From the human T2T-CHM13v2.0 reference genome, Homo sapiens: DNA of 64,000 nucleotides. The DNA is taken from assembly GCF_009914755.1 (NCBI RefSeq), contig NC_060932.1. One strand, given 5' to 3'. The translations under genes and the position numbers were made by a program. Below, one piece after another: positions 16,910 through 49,325 of the stretch. The notes below the pieces were generated by a model, which was not told the origin of the DNA, ran no database searches, and was given only the letters and a program-made list of their open reading frames with translations. Numbering within the stretch: the stretch's first letter is position 1; the number at the start of each line of letters is the position of its first letter.

Positions 16910-16971
16910 CTTGATGAGGTGCTTGTTGACCCACTTGGTGAAGGTTTTCTTCTGCACACGATCCCGCTCAT
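16910..16971 (-). CDS. PLEC: PLEC exon 2, common phase-1 acceptor for all first exons
   Basis: ccccag|ATGAGCGG; (D)ERDRVQKKTFTKWVNKHLIK; 62 nt. Confidence 0.96.
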
Positions 16972-17628
16972 CTGGGGGAGACAAGACCAGCTTACCTGGG
17001 GCCTGGGAGAAGCCCCGGGGGCCCTCAGGTGACCACCGTGCAGACACAGCAGCCTGGCTGGCCAGGTCCTGCCTGGGGAGCCCCAAAGCCTCCCTCAGAT
17101 CACACACTGAGACCCAGGCGCCCTCACCCGCAGCCCAGCCACACAGCAGAGACCCAGGTGCCAGGGGCCCAGGCGCCACCAGGTGCAGCCACCCCACCCC
17201 GGACTCTTCCCCCGAGGAAATGGGAGGGTCCTGGGCGCACCCTGAGCCCAGGGCACACAAGTCCCGTCCTGCAGTCCCCCCCGGCCTCTACAGACTGAGA
17301 CCCAAGCAGGGGTGTGGCAGAGCCAGGGCCCGGGCCCGCTGGGGTGTTGGAAGGGAAGCCGCGTGTGCTGCTGACAGGGCAGCGAACCTTCCCCAGAGCG
17401 CAGAGTTCCTCGCCCTTCCAGGCCCGACATCTGACGCTCGGAGGCCCCCGTCAGCCTCGCGGGCGCCTGTCGGCCCACTCCGTGTTGGGTGGGGATGGCT
17501 GGCCCCCGACCCCCATCTCCAAGACCAGCCCCCCAGCGGTGCCAAGGCTTTCCTGCCACAGGAAGTGGGCCTTCCTCCCGCAGGGGCCCGCCCTGCCTGG
17601 CGGGGGTGCCCGAGGGGAGCCCTGCTAC

Positions 17629-23557: not shown

Positions 23558-24627
23558 TGGGGTCCCAGGGATCTGGGATGGAGACGCCTCTCCTGGGCCA
23601 CGGCAGGAGACTGGCCTGGCTCCACCCAGGAGTCCCGAAGCCCTGCTCTGTGGAAGGCCTGGGTCAGAGAGCCGGGCCACAGGCAGGCCCACAGCATATC
23701 CTATGCAGATCAGATCCCAATGCAGCCGGGGAAACAGGACGTGGGACACGCACAGTCCTGCTCCTCTTCCTGGGACCCCTGTCTGCTGGGCGCACCCCTC
23801 AGGCCCAGGAGAATGCACGTTGACGGTATACCCCATTCCACAGCGTCGCTCCTGGCACCACATGGAACCCTCAGCAAACCCCATGAAGTCCTATACCATG
23901 AAGGCCTCATACAGACCAGGAGCCTGAGGCGCCGCCTGCTGTCCCGCACGCTGCCATCTGAGCCCAGGTGGCCTCCAGTGTAGTTACCTCAGCCCACAGC
24001 AAGGCACAGTGAACCAGCCTGGCCCCGGGCCACTGGGCAGGCCACCCAGGTCCATGCTGGGAAGCCCGCGGACAACAAGAGGGCCGGGCCCACCCCAGCC
24101 TCCTGCTCTCCAGCCCCACACCTCAAAAACGTGCGGCCGAGGGAAATGCCTGCAGTGGCCCACTCTGGGCGGCCAGGGGTCGGGCGGGCCCAGGCAGCCC
24201 TGAGGGTCAGGGATACCCAGGCATGCCAGAAAGGGCCCAACTCCCAGCTGAGCCCAGGACAGCATCTGGCCAGCAGTGGGCAGGGGCCGACAGGCCGGAC
24301 GTTTCAGCCCACTCCCTGCCACGTGCTGGGGAAGCCTCAGAGGAGCCTGACTCAATGGCCTGGGTGAGAACCAGCTCCTGGCGGGAGGAGTGCCCCAGGC
24401 TGGCAGCGGGCAGTTCTTCTACCACTCCACGGAGGTCCGGACAGGCCTGTGCTTCCGGGACACACATCACACACACCCCTGGGGCAGCTCCGAGAGGGGG
24501 CTGTGCCTATCCCTGCATCCCAGGTCTGACGGCACAGAACGGTGGACAACGGGAAGAGACAGGTCTGCCAGAGGCGGCCCCGGCCCTCTCCTCTGCCTCC
24601 CACAGCCCCCAGCTCTGCCTGCCCTAC

Positions 24628-24670
24628 CTTGGCCCAGCTGAATCAGCTCCTCCATGCTGTACCTGTCCAT
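24628..24670 (-). CDS. PLEC: Candidate additional PLEC coding first exon (MDRYSMEELIQLGQ)
   Basis: Strong Kozak gcagccATGG, 14 codons + G, donor AAG|gtaggg, in frame with exon 2. Confidence 0.7.
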
Positions 24671-25748
24671 GGCTGCCACACAGGCCAGGCTGCTCCGAGA
24701 GCCGGCAGGGAGGAAGGCGAGGCAGGAAGGAGGGAAGGGGTGGGAGGCAGAGGGAGGGCCCACTCATGCCCTGGTAGCAGCGGCTCCTCCTCGCAGCCAC
24801 CCCTTAGTCAGTAAGCAGAGATGAAGCCCAGCCGACTGACGGGTCAGACCAGCCCAGCAGACCTGCCTGGGGGTGCAGGGGACTGGCCTGCCTGCAATCC
24901 CAGAGAGCCCTCCGGCCCCAGCCCACGGGTCTTCCCTACTGTTCCTGCCCCGCCCAGCAGACCCCCCGCCCAGCAGACCCCACCCTGTAGCCTCCCCTTC
25001 CCGCTGCAGGCCCCACCAGCCCAGCCCTGCCCTCCCACCCTCCCACCCACATTCCAGGCATCCATGTGCCCAGCGGTATTTCAGGAGCCAGGCGGGAGCA
25101 GAGCCCCAAACTGCCCACCACACCCCACTCCTTGAGACTCACATTCCTCAGCCCCAAAGGTGGTCTCTTCCTCCACCTGAGTCCTCCCCAACCAGCACAG
25201 CCCCAGGCATCTGTCCAGGGGCAATGGTGACACCTGCCTCCCCTCTCCATACCTCTCCACCCAGGTGCTTGCTGACCAGTGAAGTGCAAATCAAATCCCA
25301 TCGTAACTACCCCTTAGAAGCCTGCCGGCGATCTACAGAAATCCCGCAAACGGGTGACTCGGCCAAGCCAGTGATCCCTGTGGAAAGCTGGCCGGGCCAT
25401 AGTCCCTCCACCTAGAGCACCCTGTGGCTGGGAAGAAGGGCAAGGCAGCCAGGCCACCTCCAGGCTTCCTCCTTGACGCAGGGCCACAGAGGGTCAAGGG
25501 GGGAGGTCAAGGCACAGGCGTGTCCTCCGTGTAGAGGGGAAGTCATGGTGGCTACCCAACCCCTGCCCTTTGCTGTGGGAAGCAGCTCTAGGTGCTGTGC
25601 GTGTACAGCGCTCACCGTGGTGGCGGCTACCTGGCCCCTGCCCGTTGCTGGTGCATGGACAGCGCTCAGCTGGCGTCTCCTCCACACAATCCTCGGTTCC
25701 TTCAGAATTTTGAGCCAGGCAAAGCATCGCCATTTGCAATGTAAATTA

Positions 25749-26050
25749 GGGCTGGGCGGTAGCTATAATCCCAGCACTTTGGGAGGCTGAGGCAGGCGGA
25801 TCACCTGAGGTCAGGACTTCAAGACCAGCCTGGCCAACATGGCGAAACCCCGTCTCTACTAAAAAAAAAAAACAAAAATTAGCCAGGCATGGTGGCTCAT
25901 GCCTGTAATCCCAGCTACTCAGGAGGCTGAGACAGGAGAATCGCTTCAACCCGGGAGGCGGAGGTTGCAGTGAGCCAAGACTGTGCTATTGCACTCCAGC
26001 CTGGGCAACAGAGCGGGACTCCATCTCAAAACAATAAGTAAAATAAAAAT
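25749..26050 (+). mobile_element. Alu (AluS-like)
   Basis: Dimeric Alu consensus with A-rich linker and tail. Confidence 0.93.
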
Positions 26051-28461
26051 GAAACGTAAATGAAACTCACATATAAAAACACATTCCTACAGCTTCCCAC
26101 CACACCAAGCAACTGAAACTCTGCCACAGGCCCAGGGCCTTCCCATGGGTCCTCTCCCTCTGGCCTTCCGGCCTCCCTCTGTCCCTCTCTCTGGGCTGCT
26201 CCTGGCAGGGTAGGCACCTCCTCAGAGCCCTCCCTGATTGCTTCTGAAGCCACCTTCCCATCACGCTCTCCTCACCCAGTTCACCCCACATATCTGGAGC
26301 CCCCTGGGGCAGGGGCTCCATCTGGGTCTGGCCCTGGCCTGTGCATGGCTAAACAAGCAGGTGGACGGATGGCTTCCCACACAGATGTGTTGCTGGCAGG
26401 CCCCCATGGGCCCCACCCAGGGACAAGCAGACCACCAGGGCACAGGGAGGGCAGGGGCCTCACTGCAGGGGTACAGCTGGTGCTCCCTAGCCAGGGCTGG
26501 GTGGAGAGGGGCAGCCCATCCAACAGGGCCATCCTGGACCAGCACAGTTGGCCCACGAGCTCTGACCTTGCCCTTCTGCCAACCCACGGAGCGGCTGTGC
26601 AGTGGGGAAGGGCAGGGCAGCTCACTGCTTGGTCACTTAAAAACTCCAAGAAGTGCCTGGTCTCAGGTATCATCAGAACTGCCCCGGGCTGTATGCAGGG
26701 CCATCCGGACCCCTGTCACTGCCTGAGGCCCAGCCCTGGCCCTCTGCCACACCCCACATCCGAGCCGCCTCCTTCCCCTAGCTTCCCATCCCAAGCTCAG
26801 CCCGTGAGGTCCAGGGCAGAGAGGGGTTTGAGCCTGCTGGCCCTGACTCATCCCGGAGCTGTGGCTCGCTTCCTGTTGGAAACTCTGAGCTGCTGCTGGC
26901 GGCTGTGGCTTTGGGGGGACTGAGTCACCTCCATCGGGGAGGGGTGCCCTCCGCTCTGCCTGCTGCAGCCACACCCAGCACACCCCACTCTTGGCCCTGC
27001 CGCCAGCTGCCCGCCCTGCAGGCCCAGCCCAGCCACGGACAAGGAAGGAGAAAAAGGAGGGGAGGGACTCCCAGTCACCACAGCTAGGAGTTGAGCATGG
27101 GGAAGCTGGGCTGCCAAATGACCGGGGAGTGGGTGGGCAGGGGTGCCGGGTGGGAGAGGACAGCAGGAAGGCCACATGGGCCGGGGCCTGGACTACATGC
27201 CTGGCCAAGCAGTCTTTGTCTCATGCCTCCTGTCGGGAGACATGTCGTCCATTTAGAGAGGAGCTGGAGAGGCCACTAAACCTGTCCAAAGCCGCAGAGA
27301 GAGCCAGGAGGGGAGGCCAGCCTCCACCCCACAGCCTCACTGATCCTCCCAGATGGGCCCAAGGCAAGCCCCTAACAAGTCCAACTCACCCCAGGCCAGC
27401 CAGCACCAGGGCTCCGCCCAGCATCCCACACGGGCAGCTGCGCCCTAAACTTGGGCCTCCCCTGGGCCCCCTCCCCCACACCCTGGCAAATCCTGCCCAC
27501 CCTGAGAGCCCCACCCCAGGCCCCCTTCTTCAGCCTGAGAGAGCAAGCTGCTCCCAGGTGCCAGCCCCAAAGAGGGAGGTGGGGCCAGGTGCTGGGGGAC
27601 CGGGCCATCCGGAGCCAGCACGGAGGGCAGAGTGCTCCACAGTGTGTGTGTGAGCCTCGGGCTGCAGGGGACACATCTGCCCACCTGGGTCCTGCTGGTA
27701 CAGGTGCTTGTGGACAGAGGGAGGCCACAGAGAAGGGGCAGAGCAAAGGGTCTCTGGAAGCCTCTGGGATGACAGGACCCGTCCTGTCCTGTGCGACCTG
27801 GTTCGTACCGGGAAAGGCCTATCTAGGCCCCAGGCTGGGCCAGCAGACACCACACCACAGCCTGGCCTCTGCCCTGCCGGAGGAGCCTCCTGCCTGGACC
27901 CTGCGCTTCTCCCCATCCCGCCCAGGGCCGTCCCCAGCCACCACCAAGTCCAAGCTGGCCAAGCACTCAGTTACCGGTCACACCGGGCACTCTGTGCGGC
28001 ACCAAGCCTCACCCATCAACCCCCGCGGCAAGGGAGGCGGCCAGGCCATGTGCTGGAGGAGGGCCACACCCAACCGGCGCCAGCACCTCCTCGCACACCC
28101 CCACCTCAGTGCCGAGGAGCCTCGGGGAAGACAGGTCACTGGGACAGGAGAGGAGGCGGAGGGGGCGAAGGCAAGGGCAGTGTTGGAGAGAGGGGAGGGG
28201 GCGCCCCGGGGTGTGCCTGGGCCACAGGCTCCTCCTTGGCCTACACACCCGAAGGTCCCCAGCCGAGGAGGAGGGGCCACATGGGCCCATCAGCAAGCGC
28301 ACCCCCTGACCCTCGGCTAGGGGGGGCCACCTGCTGGTGTGAGCGACGCTCCGCAAGCCGGCTGACCACTCCAACCACTCCAGCCCAGGCCCAGGCCCAA
28401 GACCCGACAACCAGACCCCTACTTGCCACCCATCATGACTTGGGGTCAGGGTGCAGCTGAC

Positions 28462-34866: not shown

Positions 34867-37129
34867 ATAGGATCATGGTTTCAAGCTAATGAGAAGGTGA
34901 GGGCACACAGCTGTTCAGAGAAGGAACACACAGCTTTTCATGCACCGACTCCGCCTTTAACTTCCCCCCTGAAGTCAAGCTGCCCGCCTGTGAGTGGCCA
35001 CCATGGTCACCTGTGGTCTCCCGCAGCCAGAGGCTTATCGACAAGCTGCAGCAGCAGCAAGTTCCCATGAAGGAGCCTGAGACTGCCCAGCCCAGCCTGC
35101 CTGGAACGGTGGCCACATGGTGCAGCCTTGGAAGTGGGGGCGGCCACGATGACCCTGGGAAGGGCTCAGCCAGCTGCACGTCAGTCAGCTCTGTGGTTCC
35201 TTCCCGGCACAGGCTTCCCAAAGGAAGGGACAGCTATGTGGGGACGGGCCGCAGGCAGCCAGCACAGGAAGAGAGGCCACAGGCACCAAGGCCTTGCCGT
35301 AGAGGAAACAAGTCCAGGCAACCCCCAAGAAGGTGGAGGTGGCTGCAGCCGGGAGGGGGGCGCCTGGAGACGGGGCTACAGCCGGGGATTTCAACAGGAC
35401 AGGCAGGTCCCAGGCTGGCAGCGAAGGGCCCACGAGCAAGAGATTTAGGCAGCGGGGAGGAAAGGGAGCTGGGGTAGAGGAAGCTGGGCGCCCTGGTGAC
35501 GCAGCTCTGGAGCGTGGGAAGCAAAGCCCCGGCCACTGCCCAGGAGATCTCATCGCTCTGGCCCCAATTCATGGATCACAAAGGAGTCTTGCCGAAGAAG
35601 CACGCGGGTCTGTGTGTCCAGGCCAGTGAACTGCAGGGACCCCCAGGCTGCAGTCGGGCTCACCAGCACCAGTGCCTCCGGAAAACCCCTACCTCTAGCT
35701 TCTGCTTTGCTGGTCGAACCCAGCATGGCCCCCATGCCCAGCTGGGGTGCCATCAGGTCTCCTGGCCAGGTCTCACACCCTGGGCAAAGCCAAATCCTCA
35801 TGAAGCTCTCTGCAAATTCCCCACACCACTGGGGACCCCAGAACCAAGGTTGAGCCCAGGCACCACAGATAAGCCCTCCCTCCTTCCCAACCCCTCTGTC
35901 TGGGCACAGAGCAACCTCCTCTTCACCAGTCCCCAGGCCCTGGCTGCCCTGGCCACAGGCCCAGGCCAAAGAAGGGGCTCCAACCCTGTCCCCCACACCA
36001 CACCTGCGAATGGGATGGGCCCTCCCCTGAGGCCCTGCCCACCACCACCCTGCCTGCCCTCAGCTTTGCTCCCTGCCCCATCTTCACGCCCACCCACCCA
36101 CCCAGCCCCTAACCCCCTGGCAGCCTGCCCTGCTGGGGCTCTCTGGTGGTGGTGGAGCAGGCCAGTGGGCTGTGACCCAGTGACCCCATGCAGAGGCGAC
36201 CTGCGACAGGCAGACACCCTGCTGGCAGATACCTCCACCTGGGGCCCCCGACAATAGCCCCAGGGAGACCAGGCCCAGTGAAATCCTGCCAGATACATCC
36301 AGCACACACTCAGCCCTCCGGAGGCACAGACCCCTGCTCTGCTCCCCGCCTGAGCCTGCGGCAGGTCCACAGGAGCCACCTCACCTGCCCCAGGCTTCTG
36401 CCTCGCAGCCTTGGCCCAACAACAGCCCGGCCTCTGCGGATGCTGCGGGACAGGTGGGAGGAGAGCCTTCCATGCTCTGGAGGCCACCCCTGCGCAGGGT
36501 GGGGCTCAGTGCGAGCTCAGTCGGGCCAGCCAGCCTGCAGGATTTCTGGGGTGGAGGGCCACCACTGCGGGACTGGATGCCCACCAGGGCTGCTGGGAGT
36601 CCCAGTGAGGGCCCAGGAGGCACAGAGGTCATCTCTCCGAGCCACATCCTTCTCCTCTCTCCCCTGCAGCCCAGTACAAGAGTATCTCAATACCAGGTGT
36701 CTGCTAGAGACCAATTTGCGGGGAAGGTCCTGGGTCCCACCCACATGACCATCCATTAGGGGGCCCATCGTTCCCAAATATCTCTCAAACCTGTCCTGTG
36801 CCCACTGTCTCCACCACACCCTGGCCTGGCCACCACCCTTTCACCTCAAAGACAGTGGTAGCCTCCCTCGTTGCCCCTCACCTCCAAGCACTGGACAACA
36901 GCAGCCAGTGCTCTCCGAGCACAAGCAGGTCCCACCACAGCCCTGCCGCTGCCCTCTGGAGGCCCTCCTCACGCAGGCACCTGCTCTGCTGCAGCAGGGT
37001 GGACCTCGCCAGGCCTCTGTGGAGAGGCTTCTCACCTGATCCATGGTGGCTCCCCCTTCCCTCCCTCTCAGCCCTCCAACACCGAGACACCTGTGGGCCC
37101 CTGGGGCGGCTGCCTCACCCAGCACCAGA

Positions 37130-48975: not shown

Positions 48976-49325
48976 ACTGGCCGCCTCACCTCCACTCACC
49001 TGCATTGCCACAACTCTCTCCTAGAACTGTCCCCGCCCTGCCACACCCACCCCAGGTCTCTCTCCAGGCTCCCATGGTGCGGCAGAACGGCCCAGCCTCT
49101 ATGAGCTGTCACAGGCCAGGCTTGGGGCGCTGGGCGACTGGACACCTCTTGGCAGCTGGGCCGACTGTCTAAGTCACCAGCCCACAGCCCTCAGCACGGA
49201 GGCCTCTCCCACAGGGTGCCCAGAGCTCTCCCGCCACAGGCTGCAGTAGCCTCAGCCCCAGAGGAATCTGCCCTGGATGGGGGACAGGGAGAATGGGGGG
49301 GCTGAGGGGCTCAGGCAGACAGGAA
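48976..49325 (-). repeat. Right arm of the 350-bp inverted repeat
   Basis: Reverse complement of 47570-47919. Confidence 0.97.

What the first reader, a model, noticed from the sequence alone, without database searches (positions are those of the whole stretch)
24628..24670. Ninth coding first exon of PLEC outside the canonical eight
Seen: gcagccATGG (optimal Kozak), MDRYSMEELIQLGQ, then G|gtaggg. This is exactly the 3n+1, G-ending architecture of all other first exons and gives ...LGQ-DERDRVQKK. It is not one of 1, 1a-1g as I recall them. It may be the less-studied isoform sometimes called 1k, which I cannot confirm. A new N-terminus implies a new targeting signal.
Basis: partly seen in the sequence, partly recalled or inferred. 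Interest (0 to 1): 0.7.

Follow-up and report, generated by a model that had tools for sequence, protein, structure and literature searches.

The report
Known ninth plectin start exon
This is a real, already-annotated alternative first exon of the human plectin gene that adds a 14-residue tip identical in humans, seals and a whale; it is most likely the published isoform "plectin 1k", so it is ordinary rather than new.

Summary
ATG at 24670 (minus strand), 14 codons plus G, donor at 24628, in frame with PLEC exon 2. The architecture alone is weak evidence: 27 of 83 donor-like sites have an in-frame ATG. Conservation makes it real. The head, joined to exon 2, is 14/14 identical in 8 of 343 fetched proteins: human, orangutan, three seals and a Kogia whale. 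The whale's upstream sequence matches human mainly in shifted frames. It is not new: RefSeq already lists exons ending at 24628, and reviews describe nine coding first exons (1, 1a-1g, 1k). Identity with 1k is inferred (about 0.8) by elimination. The primary 1k papers were not held, and two other non-canonical human first exons exist but show no conservation in my set. The head likely acts by extending helix A of the actin-binding domain and tuning it (weak model, pLDDT under 40), not as a stand-alone targeting signal. It lacks the plectin-1a calmodulin motif. Low interest.

The parts
24628..24670 (-). Coding part of the alternative first exon: 14 codons + 1 nt (phase 1); start ATG at 24670, second in-frame ATG (Met6) at 24655, both with purine at -3 and G at +4
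   Evidence: identical head in 8 of 343 proteins
24622..24630 (-). 5' splice donor aag|GTAGGG
   Evidence: 10.3 bits; leave-one-out range of 30 PLEC internal donors 2.1-10.7
16910..16971 (-). Common exon 2 (start of CH1 helix A) to which the exon is joined
   Evidence: junction present in P0074, P0078, P0079, P0101, P0121-P0123, P0224
24671..24766 (-). Likely proximal 5' UTR, free of ATG; holds a 37/40-pyrimidine tract at 24707-24746; homologous to whale mainly in shifted frames
   Evidence: the true start site was not measured
24628..24767 (-). Out-of-frame upstream ATG at 24767; its 47-codon ORF overlaps the main ATG and would stop 1 nt into exon 2. It matters only if transcription starts above 24767; the whale model appears to have Trp, not Met, at the matching place
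24628..27891 (-). RefSeq model extent of this exon (5' ends 27870-27891); likely over-extended, as it carries 42 upstream ATGs and an Alu-like masked repeat at 25759-26057
   Evidence: hub gene table

Best explanation
This is a coding alternative first exon of PLEC that joins exon 2 in frame and gives plectin a conserved 14-residue tip; it is most likely the published exon 1k, and the tip likely works by extending the first helix of the actin-binding domain. Shown: sequence, frame, donor, presence in public protein models, 14/14 identity across primates, carnivores and a whale. Inferred: (1) its own promoter lies within roughly 100-200 nt above the ATG, not 3.2 kb; (2) it is 1k, the isoform reported at podosome-like adhesions and cell borders (about 0.8); (3) residues 6-14 form an amphipathic helix continuous with CH1 helix A on binding F-actin or a partner, tuning affinity and location together with the domain (about 0.5); (4) it is not switched by calmodulin in the plectin-1a manner (about 0.75).
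For: Frame and junction. Conservation: 8 of 343 proteins from 6 species carry the head, all in one invariant form. Human vs seal is 14/14, against 33/37 (1a), 34/37 (1b), 53/64 (1c), 4/5 (1d), 14/15 (1e), 19/23 (1f), 29/41 (1g) and 154/174 (1). Upstream control: the whale's 50 upstream residues align to human in two shifted frames (scores 60, 77) better than in frame (32). 1k by elimination: the literature has exactly one coding first exon beyond 1-1g (PMC3695321 section 6). Of three non-canonical human candidates this is the only one with non-human matches: exon 36882 appears in 1 of 343 proteins (human only), exon 17388 in 0 of 343. Helix: the model has helix 6-35 running into CH1; hydrophobic moment 0.47 for residues 5-15. 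Precedent: beta-III-spectrin residues 37-52 form an actin-binding helix continuous with CH1 helix A (PMC8810934 passages), and the plectin-1a tail folds into a helix on binding calmodulin (PMC4353693 passages). Calmodulin: in the 1a register (L25, V29, A32) this head has D, M, L and net charge -2; L25D with V29D abolishes 1a binding.
Against: No source I could read gives the 1k sequence or position. McInroy 2011 and Boczonadi 2007 are not held, peptide searches found 0 papers, and the review's identifiers for 1k (A0A8I5KUE3, ENST00000693060.1) could not be resolved to sequence. The seal and whale entries are predicted 'isoform X' models and the orangutan entry may be a projection of human annotation (inference), so they show conserved DNA, not independent translation. 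The head is absent from 22 slow-loris, 8 dog and 13 Mus entries listed; 90% clustering hides isoforms, so this is weak. The structure model is poor: mean pLDDT 60.6, residues 1-20 at 37-39, and no other row of the alignment shares the head. No CAGE, junction-read, Ribo-seq or mass-spectrometry data were available.
Confidence: 0.75

Rival explanations
1. It is a real coding first exon but not 1k: 1k is the 54-codon exon at 36882-37044 or the exon at 17388-17575, and this one is an annotated but unstudied tenth head.
For: A human protein entry carries the 36882 head (P0234), which has a strong start context and donor. RefSeq lists 17388-17575. I saw no sequence for 1k.
Against: Those two candidates have no non-human match among 343 proteins. 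17430 has a weak start context. Reviews allow only one extra coding exon, and it is unlikely that the best-conserved candidate was the one missed.
Confidence: 0.15
2. The exon is used mainly as an internal cassette, spliced from an upstream phase-1 first exon via the AG at 24672, which would be in frame, with the pyrimidine tract serving the acceptor.
For: 37/40-pyrimidine tract at 24707-24746; the AG two bases before the ATG is in frame with phase-1 donors.
Against: That AG scores 4.1 bits and 287 of 2669 intronic AGs score 4 or more; the two AGs nearest the tract (24692, 24689) are out of frame. None of the 8 proteins has another plectin head upstream: 7 start at this Met and the whale model has only contiguous upstream sequence. 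Exon 1 has the same GCAGCCATGG context.
Confidence: 0.05
3. It is a barely used or untranslated exon that gene predictors propagate between species.
For: All non-human entries are predictions. The RefSeq 5' extent with 42 upstream ATGs, or the overlapping upstream ORF from 24767, would suppress translation. Absent from the loris, dog and mouse entries listed.
Against: 14/14 amino-acid identity across three mammalian orders beside a frame-shifted flank indicates protein-level selection; strong donor and start context.
Confidence: 0.05

Closest known systems
Plectin isoform 1k (P1k; McInroy and Maatta 2011, seen only through reviews PMC3695321, PMC11774597, PMC12472915, PMC8469460)
   Same: A ninth coding first exon beyond 1 and 1a-1g, spliced to exon 2, described in human cells.
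   Different: No difference known; sequence identity could not be checked because no held text gives the 1k sequence or position.
Plectin first exons 1, 1a-1g
   Same: Own ATG, phase-1 donor ending in G, joins exon 2; short head before CH1, closest in size to 1e (15 aa).
   Different: No sequence homology to any of them. Found only in placental mammals in my set, whereas 1a-, 1b-, 1c-, 1e- and 1f-type heads have fish, bird or reptile counterparts. Net acidic.
Plectin 1a calmodulin-binding tail (PDB 4Q57; PMC4353693)
   Same: The same position just before CH1 helix A; predicted helix propensity.
   Different: Asp at motif position 1 and net charge -2 versus Leu and +2, so the 1-5-8 motif is not met in register.
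N-terminal actin-binding helix of beta-III-spectrin and utrophin (PMC8810934)
   Same: A short segment immediately before CH1, of similar length (16 vs 14 residues), continuous with helix A in the model.
   Different: A functional analogy only; no sequence homology shown and actin binding untested.

Membership tests
PLEC variable coding first exons | Own ATG, open frame, phase-1 GT donor joining exon 2 in frame | tested here: met
PLEC variable coding first exons | Spliced product present in annotation or protein databases | tested here: met
   hub table exons ending at 24628; P0121, P0122, P0224 and seal/whale models; these are models, not reads
PLEC variable coding first exons | Coding conservation in mammals | tested here: met
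   14/14 in 6 species of 3 orders; flank frame-shifted
PLEC variable coding first exons | Own promoter / transcription start (CAGE) | not testable with these tools
   no TATA box, no CpG island (o/e 0.2-0.3), two GC boxes at 24955-24971; not diagnostic
Plectin isoform 1k | Distinct from 1 and 1a-1g | tested here: met
   the eight canonical heads map to other exons
Plectin isoform 1k | Sequence equals the published 1k head / ENST00000693060 | not testable with these tools
   primary papers not held; peptide searches empty; the primer table in PMC10807171 covers only 1-1g
Plectin isoform 1k | Only conserved non-canonical coding first exon in the locus | tested here: met
   8 vs 1 vs 0 of 343 proteins for exons 24628, 36882, 17388; clustering limits the view
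Plectin isoform 1k | Targets to podosome-like adhesions | not testable with these tools
   reported in reviews
Plectin-1a-type calmodulin switch | Hydrophobic 1-5-8 motif at -13, -9, -6 from the CH1 Asp, basic context | tested here: not met
   D, M, L; charge -2
Pre-CH1 actin-binding helix (spectrin/utrophin type) | Helix continuous with CH1 helix A that contacts actin | tested here: inconclusive
   helix 6-35 in the model but pLDDT under 50; actin contact not tested

The most novel reading that the evidence does not exclude
The exon is not 1k but an unstudied tenth plectin head that arose in placental mammals, has stayed invariant since, and forms an acidic, calmodulin-insensitive helix that sets the actin affinity of the domain behind it.
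Probability: 0.12. Interest if true: 0.4.

Novelty: already known. Interest (0 to 1): 0.15.

Why it matters
Little as a discovery: the exon is in RefSeq models and public protein sets and probably is plectin 1k. Two modest uses remain. First, it is outside the selected RefSeq transcript and absent from a standard isoform primer panel, yet fully conserved, so variants in these 43 bases could be overlooked in plectin disease screening (inference). Second, how first-exon heads prime the actin-binding domain is stated to be unexplained (PMC8391331), and a 14-residue invariant acidic head is a small, clean test case.

Tried and rejected
Architecture as proof: rejected, too common. Paralogous exon in MACF1 or DST: the genome searches found none. 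The DNA query was single-copy, the protein query had only its own place below E 0.39, and the degenerate pattern gave 12 matches vs 17 for the control, none near MACF1 or DST exon 2. Non-mammalian homologues: none among the listed hits. The best was a catfish hypothetical protein at 5/14, and an 11-residue Seriola head is too weak to call. Only the best 120 of 676, 1280 and 283 hits were seen, but 31 and 37 rank head-bearing proteins first. Solved structures: 44 PDB sequences matched, and plectin matches begin at query residue 14-15, so none holds this head. AlphaFold model too weak to search by fold. Literature: 'exon 1k' 0 papers; peptide strings 0; a five-term promoter search 0; four papers not held. 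Internal-cassette use considered and judged unlikely.

Full report
Observation. On the minus strand the sequence reads gcagccATGG with the A at 24670, then 14 codons and one G to 24628, then GTAGGG. Exon 2 begins at 16971 with AT after cccccag, so the join restores Asp and the frame of CH1. This exon plus exons 2-30 reproduces public protein P0122 at 1325 of 1325 residues; full length would be 4524 residues and the rodless form 3397, the length of P0122.

Chance. The pattern alone proves little. Between exon 2 and 56000, 83 sites scored as donors at 3 bits or more and 27 had an in-frame upstream ATG. Nine had a strong start context at their most upstream ATG, and only three of these (1b, 1e, this one) are first exons seen in proteins. 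All first exons must be phase 1 and end in G to rebuild Asp with exon 2. The donor itself is good: 10.3 bits, second of 11 first-exon donors in a matrix trained on 30 PLEC donors.

Conservation. A search with exon 31 gave 676 hits among 7976 scored candidates, 120 listed; 4 of the 120, from three seal species, begin with the identical head joined to exon 2. Searching with residues 1-40 of one of them gave 1280 hits among 1615 candidates at near lengths and 283 among 316 at shorter lengths, 120 listed each. These added two window-encoded human proteins, Kogia breviceps and an orangutan 'PLEC isoform 13, partial'. In all, 8 of 343 distinct proteins from 6 species carry the head, in one invariant form. 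Human-seal identity is 14/14, higher than for any of the eight canonical heads. The whale model extends 50 codons upstream, and that stretch aligns to human in two shifted frames (scores 60, 77) better than in frame (32). So the flank is homologous DNA that is not read as protein, and the start is at 24670. Against: these are predicted models; the head is not among the 22 loris, 8 dog or 13 Mus entries listed; and no non-placental match was seen (best 5/14). Clustering at 90% hides isoforms, so absence is weak. No paralogous exon was found elsewhere in the genome.

Anatomy of the 5' end. RefSeq models run the exon to 27870-27891. That would put 42 ATGs before the start, so I take those ends as over-extended (inference). 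The 96 nt above the ATG are ATG-free and include a 37/40-pyrimidine tract. An out-of-frame ATG at 24767 would open a 47-codon ORF that overlaps the start and ends just inside exon 2; it matters only if transcription starts above it. There is no TATA box or CpG island; two GC boxes lie about 290 nt upstream. A weak in-frame AG two bases before the ATG (4.1 bits; 287 of 2669 intronic AGs score 4 or more) gives little support for cassette use. Met6 also has a strong start context and could give a 9-residue head by leaky scanning (inference).

What is known. PMC3695321 (passages and section 6) states that nine first exons, 1-1g and 1k, are coding and three (1h-1j) are not. PMC11774597 (passages, section 5 part 2) lists P1k as A0A8I5KUE3 / ENST00000693060.1, at podosome-like adhesions. 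PMC12472915 and PMC8469460 (passages) report 1k rescue of podosomes in SW480 cells and 1k with periplakin at cell borders. PMC8391331 (passages) calls 1k the last isoform identified and says only the 1b head was shown to suffice for targeting. PMC10807171 (passages, supplement search) names 1k but has primers only for 1-1g. PMC4452579 and PMC5979291 (passages) added nothing on 1k. The primary papers were not held, and searches for the peptide and for 'exon 1k' found no paper. The label 1k is therefore inferred. The eight canonical heads map to other exons (their letter labels follow database names, the papers and recall). Of three non-canonical human candidates, only this one has non-human matches: 8, 1 and 0 of 343 proteins for 24628, 36882 and 17388. 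I put the identity at about 0.8.

Mechanism. Shown: an in-frame, conserved 14-residue head on the actin-binding domain. Inferred: an own promoter selects this exon, and the head tunes the domain. An AlphaFold model of P0224 (62-row alignment) draws one helix from residue 6 to 35, but confidence in the head is 37-39 and the model is weak overall (60.6). The hydrophobic moment peaks at 0.47 for residues 5-15. The precedent is good. Beta-III-spectrin residues 37-52 form an actin-binding helix continuous with CH1 helix A, and removing them abolishes binding (PMC8810934 passages). The plectin-1a tail is disordered until calmodulin folds it onto helix A through L25, V29 and A32 (PMC4353693 abstract and passages). 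In that register this head has D, M, L and net charge -2, so the calmodulin switch is unlikely. I commit to helix-extension tuning of actin or partner binding (about 0.5) rather than an autonomous targeting signal. No solved structure holds this head.

Verdict. A real, conserved, already annotated coding first exon, most likely plectin 1k. Novelty: already known. Interest 0.15. The open residue is a 12-15% chance that it is an unstudied tenth head, which one database look-up would settle.

Noticed in passing
window 36882-37044 (-): Another non-canonical human first exon: strong start context, donor gag|GTGAGG, 54-residue Cys-rich head equal to P0234 'plectin, partial [Homo sapiens]'; seen in 1 of 343 proteins, human only. 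A rival candidate for the 1k label.
   Followed up: partly
window 17388-17575 (-): RefSeq first exon with an in-frame ATG at 17430 (also 14 codons), weak start context, donor aag|GTTCGC; 0 of 343 proteins carry this head.
   Followed up: partly
window 49000-49075 (-): Best-scoring donor in the scan, with a strong in-frame ATG 25 codons upstream; no protein head maps there. Probably chance.
   Followed up: partly
window 23844-26065 (+): The predicted lncRNA LOC124902040 exon overlaps this first exon in antisense (hub table).
   Followed up: no
window 26844-26927: Two AP-1 consensus sites 77 nt apart, about 2.2 kb above the ATG; 12 such sites in the window.
   Followed up: no
P0276, P0303, P0312, P0331, P0332: MACF1-type proteins have heads resembling plectin 1b, 1c, 1f and 1g, and a 17-residue head that looks more like 1e than like this exon; none resembles this head, consistent with a later origin.
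   Followed up: partly
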